A DNA stretch of 64,000 nucleotides, taken from contig JBFMHM010000003.1 in NCBI GenBank assembly GCA_040753015.1, positions 83,463 through 147,462 on the forward strand. Direction: 5' to 3'. The DNA comes from Candidatus Omnitrophota bacterium. Lineage in GTDB: Bacteria; Omnitrophota; Gorgyraeia; Gygaellales; JBFMHM01. This document shows, piece by piece, positions 110-49,065 of the stretch. The number at the start of each line of letters is the position of its first letter. Within the stretch, counting starts at the first letter, position 1. A program made the position numbers and the translations under genes. Under the pieces are notes generated by a model. It was given only the letters and a program-made list of their open reading frames with translations. It did not search any database and was not told the origin of the DNA.

Positions 110-2077
110 TTAAAATAATCTAGATATTGCTTCTTTTAAAACAGGCCCATTATCTAATACATTAATCTTTGACCTTTGGTAAAATATCGATTTAATTGTC
201 TTTCCTATATCTTGCGGATTAACAAAATTAACATAATTTTCTTTAACTAGGGATTCTAAAAATAACTCGTGCTTTGTCCTTTTAGTCATGTTTAGCCTTC
301 GGCAATCAAAAACAATTACATATTTTCCCGAAGATGCTGCCTCAGAAATCATAGATATCGAATCACTAGATACAACTATTATATCGCATAATCCAAGCAT
401 ACCACCCAAGGCTTCAGGAATATTATTTTCACAAGCAATAATCAATAATTTACAATTATCTTCATTCTCAAATTCATTTTTAATTATCGTATCTATATTC
501 TTGGGCGTCCTTCTTGAAGTAGTAATAAAAATTTGCGCGCTTAACTCCTTGCTGACAGCTTTAATCTGGCTAACTAAATCTCTTATAATACACTCTTCTA
601 ATATTAAATCTTTCGTGTTGCCGCCCAACAAAATACCAATTTTAAATAACCCTCTGTCTTTATATCCAATCCTGCTGGCTAACATATCTTTCTGATTTTT
701 TAAATAATCTTTATCAATTAAATTTAATGCTCCTTGGGTAATAAAAATATTCTTATCTTGCTTTGGCCTGTCATGGCCGGGGATAATTGCGACATTAAAC
801 CTTTTATTAAAAATACCTGCACTCATCACTACTACTGAACGCGCATAATTTTCTTTAGTAATTATTAAATTAACTGCATGAGTACTCGCGCCGCAAGAAA
901 CAACGATATCACAAAAATTATTTGTTAATTCTAGGAAACAATTATTTTCTAATGTAAATTCGGTTAGTTTCATACAAGTAAAAATTTTACCAAAAATAAA
1001 AGTATATACGTTAAGTAAAAATTTTCTAAAATTGCTTCTAAATTTAACTGTAACAACTTTAATATTTAAATTAAACCCCTTACTTCTTTCATTAAATATG
1101 TTTTTAAATTCTTTCAAAAATGACTCTAATTGATGTAAATGCCCAGCTTTTCCATCGGTTAAAACTAAGATATTTTTATCTTGTGAGTATTTCCAACGTT
1201 TATGAAACCAGAAATATTCAGCCGGATGCTTTTTTACATATCCTTCCAAAATTTCATTTAATTTTTCAAGATTATAAAATACTGTTTCCTCCTGGGTATC
1301 TTTTTTCTCTAAGAAATAAGGCTTTAACATAGTTAGCTTTTGATAAGGCCCATTTTTACGAGCAATATATCCAGCAACTATTGGTGCATTAAATTTTAAA
1401 GCGAAACGTACCACGCCTGTCGGTGTTGGCGTAAGACGGCCAAAAAATTTAATAAACTTATCTTCTGTCCGGCCGCCCTGATCAATAACTAAACCAAACG
1501 CCTTATTCGATTTTAAAATTGACACTGCCTCACGCGAACCCATGCCTTTATAAACAACAAAACATTTTTTTTCACGACGAAGACTATCTAAATAATCACT
1601 AGCCATTTTAAATTTCTGTGGACGGGCTAAAATATAAAAATCAAAATTGCCTTTTTGAGGAATACCAATATGTAAGACTTCCCAGCTGCCAAAATGTGAA
1701 CCCATTAATACAACGCCTTTATCCTGATTTAAAAAATCCCTCACATAATCTAAACCCTCATCTTCTATATATTTATCAAGATAATTTTTGTCTATACGAG
1801 GCAGCATCAAGGCTTCGATAAAATTCATCCCCCAATTCAAATAAGTTTGCTTAAGTATCGTTTTAAGTTCCCTAGGGCTATATTCACAAGATAAGGCAAG
1901 TCGAATATTGCGATAGGCAGTTTTTTTTCTGTCTGTATTAAAAATAAATCCAAGCATCGCAACAGCCCTACCAATACCAAGAGATATTTTTAAAGGTAGA
2001 GAGCTAAAGAACCCACTTAATGCTCTAACCCAAATATACAGTAAATATTCTGCTAAATAATTTTGCTTCATCTTCAA
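110..2077 (-). CDS. Lipid A biosynthesis acyltransferase (LpxL/HtrB-like lysophospholipid acyltransferase domain) fused to a C-terminal ELM1/DUF1022-like domain
   Basis: N-terminal ~300 aa carry the LPLAT signature HFGSWE and typical LpxL length. C-terminal ~350 aa (LVLTDGKAGHLHQ...) resemble the ELM1/DUF1022 family that is often found beside lpxK/waaA. Lies directly next to lpxK and waaA. Confidence 0.6.
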   Translation of the reverse strand: MKMKQNYLAEYLLYIWVRALSGFFSSLPLKISLGIGRAVAMLGFIFNTDRKKTAYRNIRLALSCEYSPRELKTILKQTYLNWGMNFIEALMLPRIDKNYLDKYIEDEGLDYVRDFLNQDKGVVLMGSHFGSWEVLHIGIPQKGNFDFYILARPQKFKMASDYLDSLRREKKCFVVYKGMGSREAVSILKSNKAFGLVIDQGGRTEDKFIKFFGRLTPTPTGVVRFALKFNAPIVAGYIARKNGPYQKLTMLKPYFLEKKDTQEETVFYNLEKLNEILEGYVKKHPAEYFWFHKRWKYSQDKNILVLTDGKAGHLHQLESFLKEFKNIFNERSKGFNLNIKVVTVKFRSNFRKFLLNVYTFIFGKIFTCMKLTEFTLENNCFLELTNNFCDIVVSCGASTHAVNLIITKENYARSVVVMSAGIFNKRFNVAIIPGHDRPKQDKNIFITQGALNLIDKDYLKNQKDMLASRIGYKDRGLFKIGILLGGNTKDLILEECIIRDLVSQIKAVSKELSAQIFITTSRRTPKNIDTIIKNEFENEDNCKLLIIACENNIPEALGGMLGLCDIIVVSSDSISMISEAASSGKYVIVFDCRRLNMTKRTKHELFLESLVKENYVNFVNPQDIGKTIKSIFYQRSKINVLDNGPVLKEAISRLF

Positions 2078-3110
2078 TTTTTATCCTTAAAGGTAAAATA
2101 TAAATTTTAATTTGCGCATTATCAAATATTGATTTAAATTGTTCTAACCTAACCCAATCTTTTTCTGTAGTAAATATTATTTTATTATTCCTCATATTGC
2201 AAGATGCAACTATTTTATCTATATCGGCTTTCCTAAAAGAATAATGATCATAAAAATTAAATTCTAATATAATATCAAACCCGGAATTTAATAATATATT
2301 TTTAAAACTAAGGGGCGAGGCTATACTCGTAATAGTGCAAATCTTATTTTCTCTTATGATAGGCAAAATCAATTCATATGCAGCCTCAAAAATTAGCGCT
2401 TTTTTATTAAACTTATAAATAATTTTTTTTATATTATCAATATTTTCTTTTTTTATTAAATTTGATTTAGAAATAATTATAATATCTGCTCTAGCTATAG
2501 AGCTTAACGGCTCTCTTAATATACCTCTAGGTATAACCATAAAATTTCCAAAAGGATTAAGTGCATCAATAGCCAATATATTTAAATCTTTTCTAATTGA
2601 AAATTGCTGAAACCCATCATCTAATATAATTGTATCTACATTAAATTTATTCTTAGCGATTTCAGCACCTTTTTTTCTATCGCTATTAACTATAACCGGA
2701 ATATCAAGTTTTTGTTTTAATAAATATGGCTCATCCCCCATTATTTTATAATCTATTTTTGATTCTTGATTTTTTCCGCCTAAGGCGGATCTGCCTTTGG
2801 CAGAGATTTTTGATTTTCTTTTATATCCCCTTGTTAAAATAGCAGGCCTGCGGCCCTGATTAATCAGATAGCGTGCAATAAACTCGACGATCGGAGTTTT
2901 GCCTGTACCGCCCCAAGTAATATTACCCACACTTATAACTTTAAAAGGCAAAGTATATGTTTTAAAAATCTTCAATCTAAAACATAAAAGAACGATTCTT
3001 AACAATTCCGAATAAACCAAAGAAAGGCAAAAAAGATAAAATTTTATTAAACTTACAAAAATGCCTTTTTTATTATCAGTAATTATGGAATATAAATAAT
3101 CTTTCATCAT
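2025..3110 (-). CDS. lpxK: Tetraacyldisaccharide 4'-kinase
   Basis: P-loop GNITWGGTGKTP is characteristic of LpxK; ~360 aa; in a lipid A cluster. Contains a short in-frame GC-rich palindromic insert (SAKGRSALGGK). Confidence 0.8.
   Translation of the reverse strand: MMKDYLYSIITDNKKGIFVSLIKFYLFCLSLVYSELLRIVLLCFRLKIFKTYTLPFKVISVGNITWGGTGKTPIVEFIARYLINQGRRPAILTRGYKRKSKISAKGRSALGGKNQESKIDYKIMGDEPYLLKQKLDIPVIVNSDRKKGAEIAKNKFNVDTIILDDGFQQFSIRKDLNILAIDALNPFGNFMVIPRGILREPLSSIARADIIIISKSNLIKKENIDNIKKIIYKFNKKALIFEAAYELILPIIRENKICTITSIASPLSFKNILLNSGFDIILEFNFYDHYSFRKADIDKIVASCNMRNNKIIFTTEKDWVRLEQFKSIFDNAQIKIYILPLRIKIEDEAKLFSRIFTVYLG
2777..2807. repeat. GC-rich double-hairpin element, copy A (CCGCC-TAA-GGCGG then TCTGCC-TTT-GGCAGA), in frame inside lpxK
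   Basis: Seen directly. Encodes SAKGRSALGGK within LpxK. Flanked by TTGATTTT on both sides, a possible 8-bp target duplication. Confidence 0.6.
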
Positions 3111-3112
3111 TA

Positions 3113-4345
3113 CTACTGTTTAATGAATCCTTTAATTAACTCCAAATTAGCCTGGCTTGCGCCTCGATTATTTTTTAATAACTCTTTTGCCCTAATCCCT
3201 AGTTTTAATCTTTCATCAGTATCTTTGATTAATCTTCTTACTGCAAAATATAGCTCACTATAATCTCCCACAACAATTAAAGCATTGTTAGCTTTAAACA
3301 ATTCTACGATATCACGAAAATTGAAATAATGCCGGCCGATAATTATTGATTTCCCAAAAAATGCTGGTTCTAAAATATTTTGCCCCCCTCTTTTAACAAG
3401 ACTCGCACCAATATATACAATATCAGAAATTGAGTAAATAAGCGGCAAAATACCCAATACGTTAACTAAAAATACGCCGTTCCCAGAAATATCGTCTAAG
3501 GTTTTTACCTCTTTAACATAAAGTTTGAATTTAATAGAAATTAATCTCTTCAATTGGGCATTCCTTTCAATATGCCTAGGCGCAATTAATAAACGAAGAT
3601 TCGGAAATTCTTCTGCTAATTTCATAAAACAAGATAGTATACCAGATTCCTCCCCAAGATGGGTACTGCCACAAGTAAGCAGAATTTCATTATCAGCAAG
3701 CCTTCTCCTAATATTAGGATCTTTTTGCTGTATATCAAATTTCATATTCCCTATAACCTTAACTTTAGATATTTCTACTCCTAAAGAAATAAGCCTTGCC
3801 GCATCAGCTTGGGTTTGCATGGAAAACAAATGGATTCTATCCAGAATATTTTTAAATAAAAATTTACAAAAATGATACTTGTTATATGACCTATCTGAAA
3901 TTCTGCCGTTTATTATAACTATCGGAACTTTTCTTTTGTCTAATTGAATGATAAAATTTGGCCAAAATTCTGTCTCGACAATAATAACAAGCTTCGGATT
4001 TATCAATCTAATAAATCTAGACACAATAAAACTTAAATCAAATGGTAAATAAAATATATAATCAATACCTGGCAACCTTTCTGCTAACCTATTGCCTGTC
4101 GGAGTAACCGTCGAGATTACTAAAGAAAAATTGGGAAACTCATTTTTTAATCTCGGTATAAATTCTCTTAAACAATTCACCTCGCCAACGCTTACTGCAT
4201 GCAACCATATTGTTTTTTGGTTTTGTTTTCTTAACCCCAGGCCTAGCCGCTTTAAAAAATGCCTGCCGATTTTTTTCTTTAAAAAAGATAAAGACAAATA
4301 AAACACAAAACCAATTATAAAAATTAAATCATAAATTATAAGCAT
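3113..4345 (-). CDS. waaA: 3-deoxy-D-manno-octulosonic acid (Kdo) transferase
   Basis: N-terminal IWLHAVSVGEV motif of WaaA/KdtA; ~410 aa; sits between lpxK and the xerC-like gene. Confidence 0.8.
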   Translation of the reverse strand: MLIIYDLIFIIGFVFYLSLSFLKKKIGRHFLKRLGLGLRKQNQKTIWLHAVSVGEVNCLREFIPRLKNEFPNFSLVISTVTPTGNRLAERLPGIDYIFYLPFDLSFIVSRFIRLINPKLVIIVETEFWPNFIIQLDKRKVPIVIINGRISDRSYNKYHFCKFLFKNILDRIHLFSMQTQADAARLISLGVEISKVKVIGNMKFDIQQKDPNIRRRLADNEILLTCGSTHLGEESGILSCFMKLAEEFPNLRLLIAPRHIERNAQLKRLISIKFKLYVKEVKTLDDISGNGVFLVNVLGILPLIYSISDIVYIGASLVKRGGQNILEPAFFGKSIIIGRHYFNFRDIVELFKANNALIVVGDYSELYFAVRRLIKDTDERLKLGIRAKELLKNNRGASQANLELIKGFIKQ

Positions 4346-4346
4346 A

Positions 4347-5207
4347 TTATGCTCTCGGGTGAGCTTTTTCGTAAATCTTCTTCAATCTATCAGTGGTCAG
4401 GTGAGTATAAATTTGAGTTGTCGACAAATTGCTGTGCCCCAGTAATTCCTGGACTGAACGTAAATCTGCCCCTCTATTCAATAAATGTGTTGCAAAAGAA
4501 TGCCTTATGCTATGAGGAGAAAGCCCATTCTTTAAAGAAACCTTGTGAATATATTTTACAACAATACCTCTTATCCCGCGCAAGCTAATCCGCCGGCCAT
4601 TTTTATTTAAAAATACTGCCTGATTAGTATTATTTCTTCTATCTAAATATTTTTTAATTGCAAAGGTTGCCTTATCGCCAATTGGGACAAGCCTTTCTTT
4701 TTTGCCTTTACCCCTGACTTTTATCACAGACCCGATAAAATCAATATCTCTGTTATCCAAACCTGCAACTTCAGATATACGCATTCCTGTAGAATAAAAT
4801 GTTTCAAGTATTGCCCTATCACGCATAACTAAGATATCATTACCTTCGGGTGCTTGGACTAATCTTGTTGCTTCATCCTCGGTTAAAAACTGCGGTAGGT
4901 GTTTTTCTGATTTAGGGCTTAAGATACTCATTGCCGGATTATTTTTTAATATTCCGTCCTTAGTTAAAAATTTAAAGAAACTTCTAAGACATGACAACTT
5001 TCTTGAAATCGTGCGCTGTAATAAATTTTTGCTTTTAAGCAAGGCGAGGAACCTACGTATTGCTAAATAATCTATTTTCTGTATATCAATTTCCCCAAGA
5101 AAATTTTTAAATTCTTCAAGATCAATCTTATAATTTAAAAGCGTGTGTGCTGATGCACCCTTTTCTATTTCTAAATAGCGAATAAATTTTTCTATATACC
5201 TATCCAT
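4347..5207 (-). CDS. Tyrosine recombinase XerC/XerD family
   Basis: C-terminal catalytic region HSFATHLL...GHSNLSTTQIYTH with the R..H..R..Y arrangement; ~286 aa. Confidence 0.75.
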   Translation of the reverse strand: MDRYIEKFIRYLEIEKGASAHTLLNYKIDLEEFKNFLGEIDIQKIDYLAIRRFLALLKSKNLLQRTISRKLSCLRSFFKFLTKDGILKNNPAMSILSPKSEKHLPQFLTEDEATRLVQAPEGNDILVMRDRAILETFYSTGMRISEVAGLDNRDIDFIGSVIKVRGKGKKERLVPIGDKATFAIKKYLDRRNNTNQAVFLNKNGRRISLRGIRGIVVKYIHKVSLKNGLSPHSIRHSFATHLLNRGADLRSVQELLGHSNLSTTQIYTHLTTDRLKKIYEKAHPRA

Positions 5208-7182
5208 TATCTTTCAGTTGTTCTGGTAGGTTATTAGCTATATAATTACATTTAGGAAAATTACTGCAACCATAGAATACACCTCTGCGCGACCTACGCT
5301 CAACAAGCTCACCACCACATCCTTCATTAGGACATTTAACGCCCGTAGTAATACTTTTTGAGAACTTACATTTTGGAAAATCTGGGCAGCTTAAGAACCT
5401 GCCGCGCCTGCCCCATTTAACAATTAAATTTTTTCCACAATCAGGGCAAATTTCATTTGTCTGGACTACTTCTTTTTCAATCCCTTTATAGGCAGCATCA
5501 AGCGTATCCTTAAAAGGCGCGTAGAAATCACGAATCAATTTTACCCAATCAAGCTTACCTTCTTCAACCTCATCAAGATCATCCTCCATATGCGCCGTAA
5601 ATTTTACATCCATAATTTTTGGAAAATTCTCTACCAATAAATCAGATACCTTTATGCCGAGGTCTGTTGGTTGTAAATATCCTTTTAAACGGTTAACATA
5701 TTGCCTAAAAGTTAAAGTTTGAATAATTGGGGCATAAGTGCTAGGACGGCCAATACCATCTTCTTCTAATTTTTTGACTAGCGAGCCTTCGGAGAATCTA
5801 GCTGGTGGCTTTGTAAAATGCTGACTTGGTGTTAATTGCACTAAATTCAATTTTTCTTTTTTCGTTAATTCTGGTAATTTGTTCTTTGTTTCATCTTCTT
5901 CAATATCATAAGCAGCGGTAAAACCTTTAAACTTTATTTGCGATGCGCTTGCCTTAAACAAATATTTACCGGCAATAATTTCAATTGAATATAGTGAATA
6001 TACTGCGGGCTTCATTTGTGAAGCAATAAATCTCTTATAAATAAGTTCATATAGCTTAAATTGATCTTTATCTAAAATTTTCTCTAATTCTTCTAACGAT
6101 AAATCAAGCGCTGTTGGACGAATTGCCTCGTGCGCTTCTTGCGCTGACTTCTTTGCCCGATATATATTTGGTGATTCGGGCAAATATTCTTTGCCATATG
6201 TTTGGGAGATAAAATTTCTCACTGATGCAAGCGCTTGATCATTTACACGAGGAGAATCTGTTCTCATATAAGTAATCAAACCAAAAGCTCCCCTGCCTTC
6301 AATTTCAATGCCCTCATAAAGCTCTTGAGCCATCTTCATCGTTTTTGCCGCACTAAACCTTAGTTTATTGAAGGCATCTTGTTGCATAGTGCTTGTGATA
6401 AACGGCGCATAAGGGTTACGCTTCTTTTCACTTGCCACAACATCACTAACAACAAATTCTTGTTTTTTGATATCTTCAACTACTTCATCTGTAATTTGTT
6501 TACTATCAATCTCTACTTTTTTATTTTCGATCTTTTCCAATCTTGCTATAAAAGTTTTGCCTTTTTCATTTTTACCTTTACGCGTTTCTAATTCTGCTTC
6601 GATTTGCCAATATTCTTGTGACTTAAACGCTAATATCTCTTTTTCTCTTTCAACGATTAATCTTAAAGCAACTGATTGCACTCGCCCTGCACTTAAACCT
6701 CTGACTACTTTTTTCCATAAAAGCGGGCTTAAGAAATAACCCACAATTCTATCTAAGACACGGCGAGCTGTTTGTGCATTAACCATATCTGGATTTAATT
6801 TAAGCGGGTGTGCAATTGCTTCTTTAAAGGCATCTTTTGTAACCTCGTGAAAAATAAGCCTGAAGAATCTTTTTGACTTTCCGTCAAGATTTTGCATTAT
6901 ATGCCAACTAATTGCCTCACCTTCCCTATCAGGATCAGTTGCCAGATAAATAATATCATTATTTTTTACCTGTTTCTTAATCTCGGAAAAAATTTTTTTC
7001 TTTAAAGTGATTATCTTATATTCTGGCTTAAAATTATCTTCTAGATCAACACCCAAACTTGATTTTGGTAAATCGAATACATGGCCGCCTGAAGCAATAA
7101 TCTTATAATCCTTACCTAAAAATTTACCGATTGTTTTTGCCTTTGTTGGAGACTCAACTATAATCAATAATTTTTCGCTCAT
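5200..7182 (-). CDS. topA: DNA topoisomerase I
   Basis: TOPRIM N-terminus LLIIVESPTKAKTIGKFLG, ~660 aa, C-terminal Cys-rich zinc-ribbon repeats (CPDCG..., CPNEGCGG...). Confidence 0.85.
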   Translation of the reverse strand: MSEKLLIIVESPTKAKTIGKFLGKDYKIIASGGHVFDLPKSSLGVDLEDNFKPEYKIITLKKKIFSEIKKQVKNNDIIYLATDPDREGEAISWHIMQNLDGKSKRFFRLIFHEVTKDAFKEAIAHPLKLNPDMVNAQTARRVLDRIVGYFLSPLLWKKVVRGLSAGRVQSVALRLIVEREKEILAFKSQEYWQIEAELETRKGKNEKGKTFIARLEKIENKKVEIDSKQITDEVVEDIKKQEFVVSDVVASEKKRNPYAPFITSTMQQDAFNKLRFSAAKTMKMAQELYEGIEIEGRGAFGLITYMRTDSPRVNDQALASVRNFISQTYGKEYLPESPNIYRAKKSAQEAHEAIRPTALDLSLEELEKILDKDQFKLYELIYKRFIASQMKPAVYSLYSIEIIAGKYLFKASASQIKFKGFTAAYDIEEDETKNKLPELTKKEKLNLVQLTPSQHFTKPPARFSEGSLVKKLEEDGIGRPSTYAPIIQTLTFRQYVNRLKGYLQPTDLGIKVSDLLVENFPKIMDVKFTAHMEDDLDEVEEGKLDWVKLIRDFYAPFKDTLDAAYKGIEKEVVQTNEICPDCGKNLIVKWGRRGRFLSCPDFPKCKFSKSITTGVKCPNEGCGGELVERRSRRGVFYGCSNFPKCNYIANNLPEQLKDNG

Positions 7183-20133: not shown

Positions 20134-23100
20134 TTACCCAACAATTGTAATCTGTATTTGCGACAAGTCAATACCGCCGGTTGTAACAGGCGCGGTTTTT
20201 GCGCCTTGTCCTTTAGACGATACAGATTGTGCTTTGGCTAATACTTCCATTTCTTCTAAAGTTGTATTTGGATCGCTCGCCTTAGCCGCAGCAAGGTCAT
20301 CGATAAGCGGCTTAAACACTAGCTCTAATATTTCTTTATAATCACCGGCAATATGCAGGCCTTCTAAGTTAACGCGTATTCCAGCTTTAATTTCATTTAA
20401 AGCGGCAATAAGTAAATCAAATGATTGCTCATCATAATATTTATCGCTAGTTAATATTCTAATTACTTGCTTTGCCCGCTCAGTAATAGGGGCATCTAAT
20501 AAATCCGAGCCATTTAATTTAGCGATAAGTTCTTGTTTTAAAGCGGGCGATAAAACCGCTGCGCTAAATTGGTGCTCGGTTAATTTAGGAGCTTTAGCGT
20601 TAGCGCGAATACGATCAATTGTTCTTTGTAATTCTAAAAGTGCAGCTGGGTCTATTTTAACAATAGCCGTCCTTATAACTGATTCCATATCATATGAATC
20701 ACCAAGAGCTTTAAAATATGGTAACTGTTTAATCAAGAATTCAACTGTAGCTGGATCAGCGATCCGACCAAGCGCATTAATAATGGCTTTCCACTCTTGA
20801 ATTTTATCATCATACGAGGTCTCTGCCGCATGTTTTCCCATAACATCTTGATATGCCTTGATAAGCGCTTCTACTATTACCGGATTTCTTTCTCGTCCAA
20901 ACAGACGAATTATAGCCATCCTTTTATTTACATCATTGCTTACTTGAAGGTCCCTAATAACGCGCGAAACGCGTATTGGCACGCCTAACGCTTCAAGAAA
21001 AGGAAATAAAATTTTATCACAATAAGCTTGGTCGGTCTTAGGCAATCGATTGATTAAATCTTTGCGCCAGTTTGCCCATTGCTCAATTTCCGGATTAAAA
21101 CAACATCTTACATATTCTAAAAAAGCTTTGGTAAAAACACTCTGCGTATCTTCATATAAGGGGCGGGTAAGATCACCGGATTTTAATCTTACATATATTG
21201 CTTGTTCAAAATCTTTAATTATTAGATCTATCACAACCTTATTGCCAGCCTGCGATAAAGCAACAATAATAGCTTCTAAATCTTTGTCTTTCTGTAAAAG
21301 CCGTTTTAATTTCGTATATTGCTTTTCAGTAAAGCTTTCCTGATGAGTATTTGCTATTTGTATAAGGCTTGCTAATACTTCGGGTTTATTTTCATCTTGC
21401 GGTAATTGTTGCCTACGAGTTGGGGCTTGCGCATATTCTACGCGCCCAAGTAATACACTGACCGCCTCTTCTGTACCAATCTTACCCAACTCTGTAATAG
21501 CATCTTTGCGTGTTTGGTCTGGGTCGGTTCTCATTGCAATAAGCACACGAAAGTCTGCTTTTAGTTTAGGCCAATTATAATCAGTAGTTTCAATGATTTG
21601 AGCACATCTTTTAACTGCTTGCTCTCTTTGGCCTTTAGTCAAATCTTCAGCAAGTAATACACCGGTTAGCTGGAATTCAAGCTCTGTATTATAACGGCTA
21701 TCTCTTTTGCAAAGTTCAGTGTGTATTGCAACCATTGTATCTATTGCTTCAATTGCCGGGCCAAGAAGAATACGCTCTGCTAATCTGCGTGAGCCTTGAT
21801 GACATAGCTGTTGATTATTAACCATAGCATCAAGTGTCTCTACTGCTTTATCTTGATCAATTTTAGTTAAAAGTAATGACAAGAATTCAATACATTGAAC
21901 CTCATCGGATAACTTATAACTAACTATAGCTAATCTAGGCTGGTTTTGGCCTAGCGTATTTATAAAAATAGCTATTACCTGAGGTTCTTGTACGGCTATA
22001 AGCTCTACCATAAGATCAAAGGCAACAACGCCTTTAGCTTTAGCAAAGCCTGATAATGCTTTAACAACATCTGCTGGCAAGCGGCCAAGTATACATATAT
22101 CCGAGACTCTTCTTAGTTCTCTTGCGTATACTTGCTGCGGTGAGTCACTATCTGTTGTTCTTGCTGTAGCTGCAACACTGGCTTGTTGTTTTAATTTTTG
22201 CAACTTATCATAACTTCTACTAAGTTCAGTTTGTATTGCTTCTATGTCATCGATACTCTTTTGAAAGCTTATAGTTTCTGTTTGGCCTTTAGTTACAGTT
22301 CCTTGCTGCCTTATTGCATCTACTAAAGCAATAAGACTATTTACAGTAGTAAGCCCGGCAATTTTATCTTCGGTTTCAAGATGAGTTCTGATAGCAGCAA
22401 TATATGGTTTATATATTCTTGTTTCCATCATATGGGCAAGCACATAACAAGATAATGGTAAATTAATAAGGACTTCTTCAGTAAGTGTTCCTTTATATTG
22501 AGCAAAGCAAAGCCTAGCTCTTGCAGAGTCTAAAAAGCTTAGCCAAGTTATTAGGCTTACCACATCATCAGAAGTCCTGGCAAAACTACCCATAAATACT
22601 AAAGTTGCTGTTTCTGTATCTAAGTAAGTGAGTAATTCTAATACAGCTGGTTGTATATCTGGCTGCCTTGTAAGATTAACTAACATTCTAACGGCTTGTT
22701 CTTTATTACAATTAGTGCTTATAAGCAGTGCTATTTGACTAAACGCTTCTTGTCTTTGGGAGTTAGTAAGACAAGTTGCTTCTTGAAGCAATGTTCTTAG
22801 CCTTTGAGCAAGCGGTAGGCTTGTAACAGGCCAGGCCTTGTTTCTTGGAGAGAACATATCCATAACTCGCTTAGCTATACCTAATTCTTGCGGCTTTTCT
22901 TCATCTTCTGATACTTGAGCTTCTGGAATAGCTAAAGCAGTTATTGTTGTTCTTGCTTCAACAACATAATCTTCAAATAAAATACCAGCTGCTTGTAATT
23001 GTAATTCTGACCGTCTTTCATCTGTTATTGCCTCTGTAACAACAGCTAATCCTGGCGTAGATAGTTCAACATTAGTTACAAATATTGGCCTGTTGGCAAT

Positions 23101-26100
23101 ATACCTTAAGTTCCATCCTAACCTATTTATGAAGTAGCCTGCTCTTTGAGCTTTAGTGCCGTTATCTGCAGTTTGCGTATCACTAACCTGCTCTAACGTT
23201 AGATTATCCCTTAAAGATACGAAGAAATCATCTTGAATATTGCCATTAGTAATAGTCTCATTAACAACATCAACCAAGTATTCAAATACTAATCTTAGTT
23301 CTTGTAAAGAAGAGCTTGTTAGATTATTAATAACGCCTCTTGATAACAAGGCTGTTTCGCTATCTATGTAAGCTAAGGCAGTTTCAAGTATTAGCCTTTG
23401 CTCTTGACTGCCAGCTTGAGCATGCCTAATCATGCGCCTAAAATCAAGTAAGGTATATGCTAAATGCCTGCGCCTCTGCTCTGAATAAGCTAGGCCTTTA
23501 GATAAGTCTAAGTCTTGAAGCATGGGGCTTATACCGCTAGTTGCAGCTGCAGCTAAGACTGGGAGGGTTTGTGGAGAAGCAGCAGGGATTTCTGCTGTTC
23601 TTACCACACCAGACTTTTGGCTTTGAGTGGTTTGTTTTAGAGTTAACAAGCCTTTTCTGGTTTTTTCGTATTCTACGGTTACTTCTATACCTAGGATATC
23701 TTTTAAGGCTTGGGCTAAGTCTGTTGAGTCAGAGGTTTGAAGTAGTGTTAGAAAGTTTATTTCTTTACCTGTTTTTTCTCTTAATTGTTTATCTATTTCG
23801 TTGATGACTTTTTGAAGGGCTTCATTAGGCGCTGCACCTCCTCTTCCAAATTCAATGCCTAGTAAGTCGCAAAGGTCTTCTTCTAATTGCTTGAGTTTAG
23901 CTTTTTTGGTTTTCTTTTCTGAATAAAGCTGGTTTAAGTTAATTCCTGCGTCCTTTACTATTTGCTCAAGGCTAATGCCTTTTTCTTCTAAGTAATCTAT
24001 TACCACATGGCCTGTCTCATGGCCTTGAATGAAGTTAAGTACTTGCTCTAATGTAGGTATATTGTTATTAAAGTATTGCCTGAAATCTTTTAAATGCTTT
24101 TTTAATAGGTTACGGTTTACAATGTATATTGTACGAATATACTTAGTTATTCCTTCTACTACCTTCATTACCCTTGTAAATAGGCCGTGTATACGGTTAC
24201 GTAACATTAATGTTCTGTAAAGAAGGCGAAAACCAATTTCATATTGCTCAACAATGTCTTCTATTTTTTCTTCGCCACAGCATCTTAATGTTACGCCGTT
24301 TACTGTAATTTCGCTAGCTAATCCAGTTCTTTTGCGAGCACTATGAAGCCTTGCCGCAATAGCAGGTATTTCTGAATTTAAACTAGCATCTTCGATATGA
24401 ATATTACCATAGGTTATAGTAGTTTTTAATCTCCAAATTATTATACCTCTAGAGCCACTGGCATCACGTTGAAAGCCAACCTGCTCTATCATCATTTCTA
24501 ATGTATCCAAAATATAAACAAGATTTTCGCGGCTGATACCAGGACATAAATTCTCAACTTTTTCCTTAAGTATTTCATATATTCTGGATATACCACCACG
24601 AACACCAATCATAACGTTATCTCCAAAAACAAGAGATAATACTTTTTTTGCAAATTGCACTGATTCAGACAAAGAACCAGAAACTATTGAAGAATCTCTT
24701 TTAGCCCATATAGAATGCCCTTTAGTAACAGAACTATCACCTATATATTCTAATCGGCTCTCCACAATAGCAATTATTCTATCAACCATATTCGTATCCA
24801 TATTAGGATAATATTGCAATATGGTATTCCTAATACTTTGAAATAAATCAATTTTATCTCCAGGCCATTCTATCATCATAGTTCGATGCGATCGCCCTTG
24901 AGTCGGATCTGTTAGCTGTGAATTAGTAAAAAGGCTGGCCAGTATTTGTTCTGCTAAAAGGCGGCATTTTTCTTCCATCTCCATAGCTGACAATACAGCT
25001 GTTTTTGAAATTCCACCTTCTTTTAAAACGGCTTCATTAATTATTCGAAGTTCACTGGGCATTTTTGTAGTATCTACCTTTACATCAGCAAGCCCTATAG
25101 CTGTTAATCGTTCTTCTAATGTAGAGGCATCTGTGGTAAGAAATGTGGTTAGGCTTTGTTTCAATTGTCCTTTTAGAATGCTATCGAGCTTTTCAAGCTC
25201 ATCTTCTAAGTCTTTTGGTATGGCTATTTGCCCTAAGGCAAAGGCTAAACCAAATATATCTGCAAGCCGTTCTTCTTCAGTTTCAGATATTTCAGTTAAA
25301 AGATTACCTTGTAATTTTAGATTATCAATAAGTGCATGAAAGGTTTCGTGGCCATCTAAAAACCTAAGTGCTTGTTCTAATGTAGGAACAAAACCAAATA
25401 TTGGCTCAAAATCAGATAAGTGTTCTTGCACGCTCTGTTTATTTACATAAATAACTTTGCCATCTAATGTACGAACATATAAACCATGAATTAATGCTCT
25501 TTGTTCTTCAAATTGTTTTGTTTCTGGATTCCAAGTTAAAACACCTTTACAATTCGTTTTTTGTATTTTAAAGGCTTTTACCACATCACCAGGAGCAACA
25601 ATTTCTGAAAGAGGCATTGTAACATTAACTCCCCCACTAACATAGCTTCTTCTAATATTAGCCTTTAGCTCTTCATTGTAGTTAGTTTTAGAGAGGTGGT
25701 ATTCTCCTTGTTTTACTGAGTCTAGGTATGCAGCAAAGATTTGTTGTGGGGTTACAGGTTCTTTTGAGATAAGACCGTTTAGGTTGTTGGTGTTAATGAT
25801 TGATGAAAAGGCGTTCTTCAGTTCGTCCGTTCGCTGGTTCGTCAGTTCTTCTAACTTTTCGCTTTGACTTTTCCCGCCTGAGGCGGGTCCGCCTTTGGCG
25901 GATACGTTTTCTTTGTACCACTTAGCTAGTATTATTGCATTGTAAATTTGTCTTAGTGACTCATAGCTAGGGTCATGGTTTACTTTATAGGTTAGGTTAG
26001 GTAGTATTAGTTCTTTTAGTTGAGCTTCACAGTAGGATTGTAACTCTTGGTTGTTATCAAACTCCCCCTTTATCCCCCTCTTTGGTAAAGAGGGGGTCTG

Positions 26101-26772
26101 GGGGAGTTGTAGATACTCACTTTCCAGTAACACTTTCAGTGTTGATTTGGTTATTACACAGCTACCTTTTCCGTCTTCGTATACTTCTGCTTTGTCTGGG
26201 ACTATCCAGACACGGAAGGTTGTGGGAATACTAAGGGTTCGTCTGTTCTTCAGTTCGCCAGTTCGTCGGTTAGATAATTGTTTTGCCTTGGCAAATACAC
26301 GTTCCCAATAGGTAGTTGCTCCTGTAGATAATCCGGGAAATAGGCTAAAGGCTGTGTCTTTCTTAAGCTTTAGGTCTAGGAGTAGTAGATGCTTACCCAT
26401 GTCTGTGTAGGATAGATTAGTTCCTGTGAGCCTGTTAGGTTGGTTTGGGTTAAGGTTAACCCAGAATTCAGAGTCGTCTATTGTTAGAGCTGTTAGAAAG
26501 TAGTTTATGTTGGTCTGTAGGTTGTTACGTTGGTCTAGGGAAAGAATGGTGCCTTTGGGGATGTTTAGGTTGAATTGGATACCTGTAGAGACGCACTGCA
26601 GTGCGTCTCTACCATTTAAATCAATGCCCAATAATGTTGGGTTTAATTGCCCTGATGATATTTGGGTTATGTTTTGAAAACCATAACATAAGTGGTTAAA
26701 ACAAAAAATCCCTGCTAATAATAAGATAAATATACGTTTCATAGTTAAATTCATGATTAAATCAAAAATCAA
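20134..26772 (-). CDS. Giant secreted multidomain protein (2212 aa): signal peptide, two tandem zincin-like HExxH modules, long HEAT/PBS-lyase-like C-terminal region
   Basis: Single uninterrupted ORF with a hydrophobic N-terminus. Two HExxH sites, GHETFHA at aa 474-480 (nt ~25330-25350) and GHETGHV at aa 917-923 (nt ~24001-24021). Each is preceded by the same PTLEQ(A/V)L.F..GHE context and followed by E-rich ...EERLADIFG / ...EEDLCDLLG segments resembling thermolysin NEAISDIFG. The C-terminal ~1200 aa are helical repeats such as NPVIVEALIKAY...ALGRIADPATVEFLIKQL. Confidence 0.7.
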   Translation of the reverse strand: MIFDLIMNLTMKRIFILLLAGIFCFNHLCYGFQNITQISSGQLNPTLLGIDLNGRDALQCVSTGIQFNLNIPKGTILSLDQRNNLQTNINYFLTALTIDDSEFWVNLNPNQPNRLTGTNLSYTDMGKHLLLLDLKLKKDTAFSLFPGLSTGATTYWERVFAKAKQLSNRRTGELKNRRTLSIPTTFRVWIVPDKAEVYEDGKGSCVITKSTLKVLLESEYLQLPQTPSLPKRGIKGEFDNNQELQSYCEAQLKELILPNLTYKVNHDPSYESLRQIYNAIILAKWYKENVSAKGGPASGGKSQSEKLEELTNQRTDELKNAFSSIINTNNLNGLISKEPVTPQQIFAAYLDSVKQGEYHLSKTNYNEELKANIRRSYVSGGVNVTMPLSEIVAPGDVVKAFKIQKTNCKGVLTWNPETKQFEEQRALIHGLYVRTLDGKVIYVNKQSVQEHLSDFEPIFGFVPTLEQALRFLDGHETFHALIDNLKLQGNLLTEISETEEERLADIFGLAFALGQIAIPKDLEDELEKLDSILKGQLKQSLTTFLTTDASTLEERLTAIGLADVKVDTTKMPSELRIINEAVLKEGGISKTAVLSAMEMEEKCRLLAEQILASLFTNSQLTDPTQGRSHRTMMIEWPGDKIDLFQSIRNTILQYYPNMDTNMVDRIIAIVESRLEYIGDSSVTKGHSIWAKRDSSIVSGSLSESVQFAKKVLSLVFGDNVMIGVRGGISRIYEILKEKVENLCPGISRENLVYILDTLEMMIEQVGFQRDASGSRGIIIWRLKTTITYGNIHIEDASLNSEIPAIAARLHSARKRTGLASEITVNGVTLRCCGEEKIEDIVEQYEIGFRLLYRTLMLRNRIHGLFTRVMKVVEGITKYIRTIYIVNRNLLKKHLKDFRQYFNNNIPTLEQVLNFIQGHETGHVVIDYLEEKGISLEQIVKDAGINLNQLYSEKKTKKAKLKQLEEDLCDLLGIEFGRGGAAPNEALQKVINEIDKQLREKTGKEINFLTLLQTSDSTDLAQALKDILGIEVTVEYEKTRKGLLTLKQTTQSQKSGVVRTAEIPAASPQTLPVLAAAATSGISPMLQDLDLSKGLAYSEQRRRHLAYTLLDFRRMIRHAQAGSQEQRLILETALAYIDSETALLSRGVINNLTSSSLQELRLVFEYLVDVVNETITNGNIQDDFFVSLRDNLTLEQVSDTQTADNGTKAQRAGYFINRLGWNLRYIANRPIFVTNVELSTPGLAVVTEAITDERRSELQLQAAGILFEDYVVEARTTITALAIPEAQVSEDEEKPQELGIAKRVMDMFSPRNKAWPVTSLPLAQRLRTLLQEATCLTNSQRQEAFSQIALLISTNCNKEQAVRMLVNLTRQPDIQPAVLELLTYLDTETATLVFMGSFARTSDDVVSLITWLSFLDSARARLCFAQYKGTLTEEVLINLPLSCYVLAHMMETRIYKPYIAAIRTHLETEDKIAGLTTVNSLIALVDAIRQQGTVTKGQTETISFQKSIDDIEAIQTELSRSYDKLQKLKQQASVAATARTTDSDSPQQVYARELRRVSDICILGRLPADVVKALSGFAKAKGVVAFDLMVELIAVQEPQVIAIFINTLGQNQPRLAIVSYKLSDEVQCIEFLSLLLTKIDQDKAVETLDAMVNNQQLCHQGSRRLAERILLGPAIEAIDTMVAIHTELCKRDSRYNTELEFQLTGVLLAEDLTKGQREQAVKRCAQIIETTDYNWPKLKADFRVLIAMRTDPDQTRKDAITELGKIGTEEAVSVLLGRVEYAQAPTRRQQLPQDENKPEVLASLIQIANTHQESFTEKQYTKLKRLLQKDKDLEAIIVALSQAGNKVVIDLIIKDFEQAIYVRLKSGDLTRPLYEDTQSVFTKAFLEYVRCCFNPEIEQWANWRKDLINRLPKTDQAYCDKILFPFLEALGVPIRVSRVIRDLQVSNDVNKRMAIIRLFGRERNPVIVEALIKAYQDVMGKHAAETSYDDKIQEWKAIINALGRIADPATVEFLIKQLPYFKALGDSYDMESVIRTAIVKIDPAALLELQRTIDRIRANAKAPKLTEHQFSAAVLSPALKQELIAKLNGSDLLDAPITERAKQVIRILTSDKYYDEQSFDLLIAALNEIKAGIRVNLEGLHIAGDYKEILELVFKPLIDDLAAAKASDPNTTLEEMEVLAKAQSVSSKGQGAKTAPVTTGGIDLSQIQITIVG
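25873..25902. repeat. GC-rich double-hairpin element, copy B (CCCGCC-TGA-GGCGGG then TCCGCC-TTT-GGCGGA), in frame inside the giant gene
   Basis: Seen directly. Encodes SAKGGPASGGKS at aa 291-302 of the giant protein. Same orientation and reading frame as copy A. Confidence 0.6.
26077..26099. repeat. Nested GC-rich hairpin CCCCCTCTTT-GGTA-AAGAGGGGG (outer ACTCCCCC...GGGGGAGT) in frame in the giant gene
   Basis: Seen directly; encodes PSLPKRGIKG; strongly GC-rich against a ~30% GC background. Confidence 0.5.
26585..26612. repeat. Perfect 28-bp palindrome GTAGAGACGCACTGCAGTGCGTCTCTAC in frame in the giant gene
   Basis: Seen directly; encodes GRDALQCVST near the signal peptide. Confidence 0.5.
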
Positions 26773-26885
26773 AATGCAAAAATCAAAATTACAAATTAAA
26801 ATTCAAAATTAGATTCAAATACCCTAAAATCTTTAATTTTTGATATGTCATTTTGATATTTGATTTTTAATATTTGATATATTCT
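26758..26885. promoter_or_regulatory. AT-rich iterated motif block upstream of the giant gene (AAAATCAAAAT repeats facing TTTGATAT/TTTGATTTT repeats)
   Basis: Seen directly: at least 5 AAATCAAAA-type units at 26758-26820 and at least 4 TTTGAT(A/T)T units at 26838-26880, reverse complements of each other. Lies in the ~365-bp region 5' of the giant ORF. Confidence 0.3.
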
Positions 26886-27060: not shown

Positions 27061-27127
27061 ATTTATTTATTGCGTTTAGGTAGGCTTTAATTGAGGCTTC
27101 AATTACATCTGTTGAACTGCCGCGGCC
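27061..27127. repeat. Direct-repeat copy (~67 bp, ~90% identical) of the leuA 3'-terminal coding segment 28187..28253
   Basis: 27061-27115 is identical to 28187-28241 (55/55), then ~10/14 more bases match. This copy lies 10 bp beyond the yhcG-like stop, so the ~1.06-kb yhcG segment is bracketed by the repeats. Confidence 0.7.
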
Positions 27128-27137
27128 AATTTTAAGT

Positions 27138-40544: not shown

Positions 40545-40560
40545 TTTGATTATTGATTTT

Positions 40561-48749: not shown

Positions 48750-48873
48750 CAATAAGGCAGATTAAAGATCAAAGAATTAAGAATTAAGAAAAACTAAAAA
48801 ATCACACTCAAAAATAAATTTTTGGTTTTGTTCTTTCTTAATTCTTACCTCTTACCTCTTAATTCTGATTTAA

Positions 48874-48946
48874 TGAGCCGCCCGCGATTCGAACGCGGCA
48901 CACCCACATTAAAAGTGTGGTGCTCTACCAAATGAGCTAGCGGCCC
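48874..48946 (-). tRNA. tRNA-Lys (anticodon TTT); CCA not encoded
   Basis: The reverse complement is GGGCCGCTAGCTCATTTGGTAGAGCACCACACTTTTAATGTGGGTGTGCCGCGTTCGAATCGCGGGCGGCTCA; anticodon loop CTTTTAA. Confidence 0.8.
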
Positions 48947-49006
48947 AAAATAACTAAATTTACATATTCTCACCTAAGCTAACTACTACACTAGACTAAC
49001 CAAATG

Positions 49007-49036
49007 TCCGCCAAAGGCGGATCAGCCTCTGGCTGA
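49007..49036. repeat. GC-rich double-hairpin element, copy C (TCCGCC-AAA-GGCGGA then TCAGCC-TCT-GGCTGA), intergenic between tRNA-Lys and frr, opposite orientation
   Basis: Seen directly. The flanking 12-mer AGCTAGCGGCCC (49037-49048) repeats the 5' end of tRNA-Lys (48935-48946). Confidence 0.55.
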
Positions 49037-49065
49037 AGCTAGCGGCCCGAAATATTTTAAAATAG

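What the first reader, a model, noticed from the sequence alone, without database searches (positions are those of the whole stretch)
2777..2807. Family of GC-rich double-hairpin elements inserted in frame into coding genes (RPE-like), copy in lpxK
A ~30-bp element made of two adjacent GC hairpins occurs three times in this 64-kb window of ~30% GC. Copies lie at 2777-2807 (inside lpxK), 25873-25902 (inside the giant gene) and 49007-49036 (intergenic, inverted). The hairpin pattern is CCGCC-loop-GGCGG followed by TC(N)GCC-TTT-GGC(N)GA. The two intragenic copies share orientation and reading frame and add a Gly/Ala/Ser-rich peptide (SAKGRSALGGK / SAKGGPASGGKS) without breaking the ORF. This resembles Rickettsia palindromic elements, which colonise coding sequences. 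Copy A is flanked by TTGATTTT on both sides, a candidate target duplication.
Basis: seen in the sequence. Interest (0 to 1): 0.75.

Follow-up and report, generated by a model that had tools for sequence, protein, structure and literature searches.

The report
Tiny 30-base hairpin insertion element
The three GC-rich double hairpins are copies of a 30-base insertion element that sits harmlessly inside genes, and it is not special to this genome: the same element turns up in essential genes, tRNA-like sequences and ribosomal RNA of bacteria from more than fifteen phyla, apparently undescribed.

Summary
The window holds exactly three copies of a 30-nt element: 2775-2804, 25873-25902 and 49007-49036. 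Each is two abutting 15-nt hairpins with a 6-bp GC stem and a 3-nt loop. A covariance model built only from other genomes' copies scores them at 46-54 bits; the next best site scores 9.

The RPE analogy holds in spirit, since this is palindromic DNA living in frame inside genes. It is not an RPE and not lineage-specific. One truncated scan of GTDB species genomes returned at least 120 loci in Patescibacteria, Omnitrophota, Ignavibacteriota, Planctomycetota, Bacteroidota, uncultured Gammaproteobacteria, Bdellovibrionota and others.

Elsewhere copies lie in rpoB, rpoC, gyrA, ftsH, leuS, murF, tsaD, pgk and tpi. One sits at the tip of 23S rRNA helix 98, and several lie in tRNA fragments.

Two filled-versus-empty comparisons show a precise 30-nt insertion without target duplication: the tRNA-Lys fragment in this window, and murF orthologues. 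The proposed TTGATTTT duplication is therefore not supported.

Stem positions left free by the search pattern are complementary in 95% of copies, with four pair types. The flanks prefer T at -2 and A at +2.

No linked transposase was found, so the mobilising mechanism is unknown. I found no description in Rfam or in the searchable literature.

The parts
2775..2804 (-). Copy A of the 30-nt double-hairpin element, inside lpxK. Coding strand: TCTGCCAAAGGCAGA|TCCGCCTTAGGCGGA, encoding SAKGR-SALGG (LpxK residues 103-112).
   Evidence: (45.9 bits)
25873..25902 (-). Copy B, inside the 2212-aa ORF. Coding strand: TCCGCCAAAGGCGGA|CCCGCCTCAGGCGGG, encoding SAKGG-PASGG, in a variable linker after the conserved WYK motif.
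   Evidence: 48.9 bits
49007..49036 (+). Copy C, intergenic between frr and tRNA-Lys. The canonical orientation (AAA loop, then TCT loop) is on the plus strand.
   Evidence: (53.5 bits)
48999..49054 (-). Duplicate 5' fragment of tRNA-Lys that hosts copy C: TATTTC-GGGCCGCTAGCT[element]CATTTGGT. This is the 'filled' site.
   Evidence: 26 nt match the intact gene with one mismatch once the 30 nt are removed
48873..48947 (-). Intact tRNA-Lys(UUU). This is the paralogous 'empty' site, GGGCCGCTAGCT|CATTTGGT. It fixes the element at exactly 30 nt with no target duplication, inserted after the third base of the D stem.
2025..3110 (-). Host gene lpxK (tetraacyldisaccharide 4'-kinase). The element sits in the variable loop between the RGYKR and MGDEP motifs.
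20134..26772 (-). Host gene: a 2212-aa Omnitrophota-specific protein, with only a weak HEAT-repeat hit in Pfam.

Best explanation
The three sites are copies of a very small, non-autonomous, selfish insertion element of exactly 30 nt.

Structure. The master form is TCCGCC-AAA-GGCGGA|TCCGCC-TCT-GGCGGA: two abutting 15-nt hairpins, each with a 6-bp GC stem and a 3-nt loop.

Insertion. It is inserted precisely, without target-site duplication, at sites with T at -2 and A at +2. Such sites often lie in loops of pre-existing hairpins (tRNA D, anticodon and T loops, an rRNA helix tip, terminator-like stems) or inside short tandem repeats.

Why genes survive it. Thirty nt is ten codons, so an insertion never shifts the frame. 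In phase 0 the element reads S-A-K-G-G-S-A-S-G-G, a flexible hydrophilic loop. Copies therefore persist in permissive surface loops of proteins, including essential ones, and are purged elsewhere.

Maintenance. Hairpin pairing is preserved through compensatory changes.

Distribution. The family is spread across many bacterial phyla, which implies horizontal spread, or a widely shared trans-acting machinery, or both.

Shown versus inferred. Shown here: it is an insertion, its boundaries, the absence of duplication, the structural constraint, the breadth of hosts and the selection on phase and orientation. Inferred: that it moves by a trans-acting enzyme acting on folded single-stranded DNA (HUH/RAYT-like or a recombinase), or alternatively spreads between orthologues by recombination through conserved flanks. 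In this window it has no demonstrable function beyond adding ten residues to LpxK and to the giant protein, and placing a hairpin pair just after frr.
For: Real family. Pattern enrichment in the window. Model R1, built from foreign copies only, finds just the three sites.

Insertion with exact boundaries and no duplication.
- The tRNA-Lys fragment against the intact tRNA-Lys in the window.
- murF orthologues: CGGTTT|30 nt|ACAAATCGC in L119 against CGGTTT|ACAAATCGC in L134. The protein alignment shows a clean 10-aa gap in 13 of 16 sequences.
- 30 extra nt at the loop of 23S helix 98 in L041.
- LpxK and giant-protein homologues lack the segment.

Structure is constrained. Stem positions left as N in the search pattern are Watson-Crick paired in 127/134 and 128/134 copies, with CG, AU, GC and UA pairs. 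On alignment A3, 98.7% of cells are paired, 9 of 12 pairs show double changes and 0 of 500 shuffles reach this. Variants with compensated changes at other stem positions also exist.

A copied master sequence rather than de novo palindromes. The asymmetric loop combination AAA+TCT and its reverse complement make up 60 of 134 copies. Perfectly symmetric forms are under-represented: 34 observed against 54 expected.

Breadth. At least 120 loci from more than 15 phyla, including an isolate (Marivirga aurantiaca), a single-cell genome and a closed long-read chromosome. Only 7 loci in 2.9 million viral contigs. None in the plasmid, phage or E. coli collections.

Target preference. T at -2 in 80% of copies and A at +2 in 76%. 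This also holds where the flanks are tRNA sequence. Fifteen of about 137 copies lie in tRNA-like sequence.

Behaviour typical of insertion elements. Other inserts are nested inside element loops. The same murF site is filled in three proteins that are not each other's closest relatives. Secondary copies occur about once per 34 kb in element-bearing loci, and once per 21 kb here.

Selection on coding copies. In open frames of at least 200 codons the phases are 24:11:6. In phase 0 the SAKGG-SASGG orientation beats its reverse complement 10:1, although the two orientations are about equally common overall. The hosts are housekeeping genes.
Against: - No mobilising gene was found. No protein family is shared by the neighbourhoods of 127 loci; the largest is seen in 7 loci.
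- No filled/empty polymorphism between near-identical strains was obtained. The metagenome scan for copy B found nothing, so recent movement is not demonstrated. Copy B is shared with a related MAG at 87% local protein identity, so copies can be old and stable.
- Intergenic copies show no strand bias relative to gene direction (20/42) or GC skew (23/41). Classical lagging-strand ssDNA transposition would predict one.
- Flanking direct repeats are enriched: 23 copies with 7 nt or more, against 4-6 expected. Many copies also sit in 7-nt tandem arrays. A simple cut-and-paste model without duplication does not explain this.
- Partial tRNA duplicates carrying the element next to intact tRNAs recur and remain unexplained.
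Confidence: 0.75

Rival explanations
1. A functional structured nucleic-acid motif, such as a binding site for a conserved protein, an RNA processing or stability signal, or a terminator. On this reading it was recruited repeatedly because it is useful, not because it is selfish.
For: Pairing is strongly conserved with compensatory changes. The A-rich loop is almost always 5' and the T-rich loop 3' on either strand. Copy C lies 30 nt after frr, and its distal hairpin is picked up as terminator-like. The dyad symmetry would suit a dimeric DNA-binding protein.
Against: There is no common genomic context. Copies lie inside unrelated housekeeping ORFs, in rRNA, in tRNA fragments and in intergenic DNA. 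Presence at orthologous sites is patchy. There is no Rfam family. Copies A and B lie mid-ORF, where a terminator would be harmful. The terminator-like call is within chance expectation (1 found, 1.3 expected).
Confidence: 0.1
2. De novo local origin. Replication template switching or fold-back synthesis repeatedly creates and perfects small palindromes at AT-rich or repeat-rich sites, with no copying from a master element.
For: The architecture is a nested palindrome. Fifteen copies are perfect 30-nt palindromes. Copies are associated with tandem repeats and flanking direct repeats. Template switching is known to perfect quasi-palindromes in a single event (my own knowledge), which could mimic covariation.
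Against: The same about 30-nt sequence, with the same asymmetric AAA/TCT loop pair, recurs in over 100 genomes of different phyla. The arms do not derive from the local flanks. Chance expectation for the pattern is about one hit in the whole collection (my own calculation, assuming uniform base composition).
Confidence: 0.05
3. The element spreads passively as a hitchhiker. Once inside a conserved gene, it moves between lineages by horizontal transfer and homologous recombination through the conserved flanks, with no dedicated transposition mechanism.
For: The same murF site, with DNA flanks conserved between lineages, is filled in three proteins that are not nearest relatives. No transposase is linked. 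There is no target duplication.
Against: This does not explain first arrivals at hundreds of unrelated sites, including non-conserved intergenic DNA and lineage-specific proteins such as the giant ORF. It also does not explain the shared T(-2)/A(+2) flank preference or the nested inserts.
Confidence: 0.1
4. Ordinary native coding sequence (a Gly/Ser-rich linker) or an assembly or sequencing artefact.
For: The peptides look like low-complexity linkers. Most hosts are metagenome-assembled genomes.
Against: The same nucleotide sequence also occurs outside genes and in RNA genes. Orthologues show clean 10-aa gaps. The element is present in assemblies from many pipelines, in a single-cell genome, in an isolate and in a closed long-read chromosome.
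Confidence: 0.02

Closest known systems
Rickettsia palindromic elements (RPE; Ogata et al. 2000, recalled from my own knowledge)
   Same: Palindromic repeats without a transposase gene. They are inserted in frame into protein-coding genes, including essential ones, and into RNA genes, adding a tolerated peptide in surface regions.
   Different: RPEs are roughly 100-150 bp and confined to Rickettsia and close relatives. This element is 30 nt, GC-rich, unrelated in layout (two tandem 15-nt hairpins) and found in more than 15 phyla.
REP / REPIN elements and their RAYT transposases (abstract of PMC3733652 seen; the rest from my own knowledge)
   Same: GC-rich palindromes of 20-40 nt that form hairpins, often occur as doublets, lack target duplication, and are thought to be mobilised in trans by an HUH tyrosine transposase acting on single-stranded DNA.
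   Different: REPs are extragenic, species-specific, high in copy number and carry a GTAG or CGTC tag at one end. Here 35% of copies lie in ORFs of at least 150 codons. Tags are not enriched: 12 of 134 against 19 expected. The two hairpins are tandem rather than the arms of one long hairpin. No RAYT-like neighbour was seen.
Double-hairpin elements of Allomyces/chytrid mitochondria and the GC clusters of yeast mitochondrial DNA (my own knowledge: Paquin, Laforest and Lang 2000; yeast var1 GC clusters)
   Same: Short GC-rich elements in AT-rich genomes that fold into two hairpins. They are found in intergenic DNA, variable rRNA regions and in frame in protein genes. Their mechanism of movement is unknown.
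   Different: These are organellar, lineage-restricted and unrelated in sequence. Some yeast GC clusters have short AT-rich target duplications, and none is seen here.
Small dispersed repeats (SDR) of heterocystous cyanobacteria (Elhai et al. 2008, my own knowledge)
   Same: Very small (21-27 nt) palindromic mobile repeats, with nested insertions and copies inside genes and RNA genes.
   Different: They are restricted to one cyanobacterial clade and have different sequences. The element here crosses phylum boundaries.
PARCEL palindromic amphipathic repeat coding elements (abstract of PMC2996958)
   Same: Palindromic coding repeats that are horizontally distributed among distant microbes. Both strands encode similar peptides.
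   Different: PARCELs are longer tandem intragenic repeats that encode structured amphipathic modules in surface proteins. They are not single 30-nt inserts in housekeeping genes.

Membership tests
Rickettsia palindromic elements | Length about 100-150 bp with family-specific consensus sequences (my own knowledge) | tested here: not met
   The element is exactly 30 nt, as defined by filled/empty comparisons.
Rickettsia palindromic elements | Host range limited to Rickettsia/Rickettsiales | tested here: not met
   The source is an Omnitrophota MAG. Copies occur in more than 15 other phyla.
Rickettsia palindromic elements | In-frame residence in protein-coding genes without disruption | tested here: met
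REP / REPIN-RAYT | GC-rich imperfect palindrome of 20-40 nt | tested here: met
REP / REPIN-RAYT | GTAG or CGTC tetranucleotide tag at one end (abstract of PMC3733652) | tested here: not met
   12 of 134 copies have such a tag within 8 nt of an end, against 19 expected at random sites.
REP / REPIN-RAYT | Extragenic location | tested here: not met
   45 of 127 copies lie in open frames of at least 150 codons. Two of the three window copies are intragenic.
REP / REPIN-RAYT | A cognate RAYT (Y1 HUH transposase) gene in the genome, often flanked by the repeats | tested here: inconclusive
   No shared protein family in the 8-kb neighbourhoods of 127 loci. Whole genomes could not be examined.
MITE (miniature inverted-repeat transposable element) | Target-site duplication of fixed length flanking the element | tested here: not met
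   No duplication at the tRNA-Lys or murF filled/empty pairs. The flanking direct repeats seen elsewhere vary in length and position.
MITE (miniature inverted-repeat transposable element) | Terminal inverted repeats derived from a parent IS element | tested here: inconclusive
   The two halves are near inverted copies of each other. No longer element bounded by single hairpins was seen in 1 Mb of loci.
Mitochondrial double-hairpin elements / GC clusters | Short GC-rich two-hairpin insert in an AT-rich genome, found in intergenic DNA, rRNA and coding DNA | tested here: met
   This is similarity of form only; the organellar host and the sequence families are not shared.
Intrinsic transcription terminator | GC hairpin followed by a U tract at the end of a transcription unit | tested here: inconclusive
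   Copy C's distal hairpin is called terminator-like, with tail CATTTGGTTA (1 found against 1.3 expected by chance). Copies A and B lie mid-ORF with A-rich tails.
Described RNA families (Rfam 15) | Match to a curated covariance model | tested here: not met
   Only tRNAs were found at gathering threshold. Nothing meaningful was found around copy C at E up to 10.

The most novel reading that the evidence does not exclude
This may be the smallest mobile DNA known in bacteria: a 30-nt double hairpin that crosses phylum boundaries and inserts precisely, without duplication, into loops of folded DNA. It colonises essential genes (rpoB, rpoC, gyrA, ftsH, aminoacyl-tRNA synthetases), rRNA and tRNA sequences. 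It would be mobilised by a still unidentified, widely distributed enzyme or by a host replication or repair pathway, and it appears not yet to have been described.
Probability: 0.45. Interest if true: 0.88.

Novelty: new variant of a known kind. Interest (0 to 1): 0.78.

Why it matters
- **Cross-phylum selfish DNA.** If it holds up, selfish palindromic DNA that lives inside coding sequences is not a curiosity of Rickettsia or of mitochondria. A single 30-nt family would be shared by CPR bacteria, Omnitrophota, Ignavibacteria, Planctomycetes, Bacteroidota and others.
- **A tractable mechanistic question.** What inserts an exact 30-mer without duplication at T-N|N-A sites, often in hairpin loops? 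The sequence is known, and at least one cultured host exists (Marivirga aurantiaca S37H4, L014).
- **Practical consequences.** The element adds 10-residue loops to core proteins and extra hairpins to rRNA and tRNA-like sequences of uncultivated bacteria. This affects alignment, phylogenetic markers, tRNA and rRNA annotation and structure prediction. It also marks permissive insertion sites in essential proteins.

Tried and rejected
- **Extending the window.** I tried to fetch more of the source contig to count copies genome-wide. The three window proteins are not on record in the gene-position index, and neither are the two closest giant-protein relatives.
- **Strain-level polymorphism at copy B.** A metagenome scan with a 0-30 nt gap pattern found nothing.
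- **RNA-mediated origin of the tRNA fragments.** I considered this because the fragment edges seemed to coincide with mature tRNA ends. I rejected it because the duplicated stretch extends into the 5' or 3' flank of the gene: TATTTY in the window and at least 11 nt in L049.
- **Flank complementarity as a general rule** (the element always at the tip of a longer hairpin). This holds only for a minority: 4 copies with 8 bp or more against 0.2 expected, with the mean no different from controls.
- **Fixed-length target duplication.** Rejected.
- **A longer parent element bounded by single hairpins.** Most 'solo' 15-mers turned out to be doublets with a degenerate partner.
- **Linked transposase.** None found.
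- **Strand bias of intergenic copies.** None found.
- **REP tags.** Absent.
- **ANTAR-type dual hairpin** (raised by a paper seen). From my own knowledge, ANTAR substrates have hexanucleotide loops; these loops are 3 nt, and no Rfam hit appeared.
- **TIGR arrays and CRISPR repeats.** The element has no variable spacers and occurs as single units.
- **Literature searches.** Searches for the sequence, the encoded peptides and descriptive terms found nothing relevant.
Full report
**1. What is in the window**

The three reported sites exist, and each can be delimited to 30 nt:
- A: 2775-2804, TCCGCCTAAGGCGGA|TCTGCCTTTGGCAGA
- B: 25873-25902, CCCGCCTGAGGCGGG|TCCGCCTTTGGCGGA
- C: 49007-49036, TCCGCCAAAGGCGGA|TCAGCCTCTGGCTGA

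Each is a tandem pair of 15-nt hairpins with a perfect 6-bp stem and a 3-nt loop. A degenerate pattern finds them against 0.05 matches expected from shuffles. Folding gives the two-hairpin structure for A and B, with z-scores of -4.6 and -3.8. Window GC is 35%, not about 30%.

A lies in lpxK (ORF 2025-3110, minus strand; Pfam LpxK) and reads SAKGR-SALGG. B lies in the 2212-aa ORF 20134-26772 (minus strand) and reads SAKGG-PASGG. C lies 30 nt downstream of frr in the tsf-pyrH-frr operon, and upstream of a tRNA-Lys/Leu/Gly cluster.

The source is a Candidatus Omnitrophota MAG (100% match to P0001).

**2. Copy C gives the element's boundaries**

On the minus strand the sequence reads TATTTC-GGGCCGCTAGCT-[30 nt]-CATTTGGT. 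Fifty-nine nt further on, the intact tRNA-Lys begins TATTTT-GGGCCGCTAGCTCATTTGGT. With the 30 nt removed, 26 nt match with one mismatch.

The element is therefore an exact 30-nt insertion with no target-site duplication. Here it sits after the third base of the D stem, in a duplicated 5' fragment of the tRNA gene.

**3. The family is not specific to this genome**

One scan of one-genome-per-species GTDB contigs used the pattern CNGCCWNWGGCNGNTCNGCCWNWGGCNGA. For uniform base composition I calculate about one chance match in that collection.

The record titles name the following hosts:
- many Patescibacteria/CPR lineages
- Omnitrophota, Ignavibacteriota, Planctomycetota
- Bacteroidota (Marivirga, Cytophagales, Saprospiraceae)
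- uncultured Gammaproteobacteria
- Bdellovibrionota, Elusimicrobia, Zixibacteria, KSB1, Margulisbacteria, Lentisphaerae, Verrucomicrobiota
- a Leptospira and a Chlorobi MAG

Among the hosts are an isolate genome, a single-cell genome and a closed long-read chromosome, so this is not an assembly artefact.

The element is rare in viral contigs (7 loci). It is absent from the plasmid, phage and E. coli collections. Rfam has no such family. Seven literature searches, by sequence, by encoded peptide and by description, found nothing.

A covariance model built only from foreign copies (A3, R1) finds exactly the three window sites at 46-54 bits. Nothing else scores above 9 bits.

**4. Structure and sequence**

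The search pattern left three stem pairs unconstrained. They are nevertheless Watson-Crick paired in 124-128 of 134 copies, with CG, AU, GC and UA all present. On A3, 98.7% of cells pair, nine of twelve pairs show changes on both sides, and no shuffle or slid register comes near. An unbiased scan for any 2 x (6 bp/3 nt) hairpins in 1 Mb found further variants with compensated changes at other stem positions.

The two hairpins vary independently, so the conserved fold is the two hairpins, not one long one.

The 5' loop is A-N-A and the 3' loop T-N-T on whichever strand is read. The commonest form is asymmetric, AAA with TCT. Together with its reverse complement it accounts for 60 of 134 copies. 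Perfectly symmetric combinations are under-represented. This points to a copied master sequence, TCCGCCAAAGGCGGATCCGCCTCTGGCGGA, rather than to palindromes made afresh at each site. It also allows an orientation to be defined: A and B are canonical on the coding (minus) strand, C on the plus strand.

**5. Where copies sit**

Of 127 copies in the fetched loci, 45 lie in open frames of at least 150 codons. The host proteins include:
- RpoC, RpoB, LeuRS, Mfd, FtsH, GyrA, MurF
- TsaD (twice, at different places)
- PGK, TIM, DnaJ, TruB, a RecJ-like DHH protein and an S41 peptidase

In frames of at least 200 codons the phases are 24:11:6. In phase 0 the orientation that encodes SAKGG-SASGG outnumbers its reverse complement (SARGG-SAFGG) 10:1, although the two orientations are about equally frequent overall. 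That is a signature of selection on the encoded peptide.

One copy sits at the loop of helix 98 of a 23S rRNA gene.

Fifteen of about 137 copies lie in tRNA-like sequence, in D, anticodon or T loops. In at least eight cases the host is a partial duplicate of the adjacent intact tRNA gene, as in this window.

Other inserts are nested in the element's own loops. The flanks show T at -2 (80%) and A at +2 (76%), also where the flanks are tRNA sequence.

**6. The two intragenic copies here**

In LpxK the element lies between the RGYKR and MGDEP motifs. The nearest orthologues (61% and 58% identity) and the solved Aquifex enzyme lack it. The AlphaFold model has pLDDT below 50 for residues 99-116, around the element peptide 103-112.

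This loop is hypervariable across 120 Omnitrophota LpxKs:
- 10 residues: a single unit
- 17 residues (the modal length): an internal direct repeat such as ITSYEL-RVTSYET
- 24 and 31 residues: the repeat plus one or two 21-nt hairpins of a different GC-rich family (CCTGCCTG-N5-CAGGCAGG, encoding PACRQAG or CLSGRQA-CLPGRQA)

The nearest relative, P0002, carries a degenerate element-like insert in another phase. The direct repeat around copy A is part of this two-unit loop and is not a target duplication.

In the giant protein the element sits in a variable linker after a conserved WYK motif. A related MAG's protein (P0122, 87% local identity) has the identical SAKGGPASGG. A paralogue and all other homologues lack it. 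This copy is therefore old enough to be shared by two species.

**7. Independent proof of insertion and of site recurrence**

In MurF of CPR bacteria, 7 of 120 homologues carry the element, at three sites. At site 1, EAIKVLSRF|TNRRKVF, a clean 10-residue block is present in P0230, P0265 and P0270. It is absent from 13 others, including the closest relatives of P0230.

At the DNA level, L119 reads CGG TTT|30 nt|ACA AAT CGC, and its 70%-identical orthologue L134 reads CGG TTT|ACA AAT CGC. Again this is an exact 30-nt insertion with no duplication and no deletion. The three carriers are not each other's nearest relatives. Either the site is a hot spot, or the element moves between orthologues through the conserved flanks.

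**8. Mechanism**

Shown: it is an insertion of fixed length with a defined master sequence, a structural constraint, a flank preference and a very broad host range.

Not shown: how it moves.
- No protein family recurs near it.
- Intergenic copies have no strand bias.
- No strain-level polymorphism was obtained.

The absence of duplication, the dependence on hairpins and the preference for loops of folded DNA fit enzymes that act on single-stranded hairpins, such as HUH/RAYT-like transposases or some recombinases. That link is an inference. Spread by homologous recombination between orthologues may contribute.

Two observations remain unexplained. Flanking direct repeats and 7-nt tandem arrays are enriched around copies. 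Element-bearing partial tRNA copies recur next to intact tRNA genes. The simplest reading of the latter is a target preference for tRNA-like hairpin loops, combined with purifying selection that leaves only insertions in non-functional fragments.

**9. Comparison and verdict**

In behaviour it resembles Rickettsia palindromic elements, REP/REPIN sequences, mitochondrial double-hairpin elements and GC clusters, and cyanobacterial small dispersed repeats. It fails the defining features of RPEs (size, host range), of REPs (extragenic location, GTAG/CGTC tag) and of MITEs (target duplication).

I class it as a new variant of a known kind of selfish DNA. It is unusual for its size (30 nt), its cross-phylum distribution and its presence in core genes. 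The caveat is that only open-access literature and Rfam could be checked.

Noticed in passing
window 27061-27143 and 28187-28269: An 83-nt direct repeat (88% identity) brackets a YhcG/DUF1016 PD-(D/E)XK nuclease gene (27138-28145, minus strand). The second copy is the 3' end of leuA (28176-29681). This looks like a nuclease gene cassette inserted at the end of leuA, with the target duplicated.
   Followed up: partly
L128 (P0007), L129 (P0020), L130 (P0004): the LpxK loop between RGY and GDE: Other Omnitrophota LpxK genes carry a different GC-rich hairpin family at the same loop. It has a 21-nt unit, CCTGCCTG-N5-CAGGCAGG, present once or twice and encoding PCLAGRQ or CLSGRQA-CLPGRQA. P0004 instead has a 26-nt insert flanked by a perfect 14-nt direct repeat, GTCACCACGTCACC.
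   Followed up: partly
P0001-P0120, LpxK loop: The modal 17-residue loop of Omnitrophota LpxK contains an internal direct repeat, for example ITSYEL/RVTSYET, ITDYRL/PITDYQN or NSKLKTQ/NSKLSY. Its two halves co-vary between orthologues. Ten-residue single-unit forms and a three-unit form also exist. The cause is unknown: recurrent 21-nt duplication, or constraints of a beta-hairpin.
   Followed up: no
L110, L049, L031, L078, L050, L055, L053: As in the window, the element sits in a partial duplicate of a tRNA gene lying 8-290 nt from the intact gene. The duplicate is a 5' fragment when upstream and a 3' fragment when downstream. In L049 the unit is tandemly repeated with a 104-nt period. In L053 it is a near-complete second tRNA-Val with a spoiled acceptor stem.
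   Followed up: partly
L041 229-4663: The 23S rRNA gene of an uncultured gammaproteobacterium carries three group I introns as well as the 30-nt element at the tip of helix 98.
   Followed up: partly
L060 (uncultured Pseudomonadota), 3766-6883: Five copies or variants of the element lie within about 3 kb, one of them with a roughly 28-nt insert nested in its second loop. This density is unusually high.
   Followed up: no
window 26759-26878 and 40524-40559: A-rich heptamer-like repeats (AAAATCA/AAAATGC) lie just upstream of the giant ORF. They form inverted matches with each other and with a site 13.7 kb away (36 nt, 92% complementary) (I2, I5, I6). Similar heptamers flank copy A.
   Followed up: no
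window 25813-25857, 26237-26289: A degenerate 45-nt direct repeat lies within the giant ORF close to copy B. It encodes ELKNRRT-like peptide repeats (D3).
   Followed up: no
window 18649-19455: An AbiEii-type nucleotidyltransferase toxin gene (type IV toxin-antitoxin) lies immediately downstream of the giant ORF, next to two ORFs without Pfam hits.
   Followed up: no
L014, L046, L096 (Marivirga / Cytophagales): A CCAGCC-type variant of the element has near-identical flanks (GCGTGGAAG|...|CATCTTTT) in an isolate and in a MAG of different species. This suggests an orthologous copy that has been stably inherited. No Rfam family covers it.
   Followed up: partly
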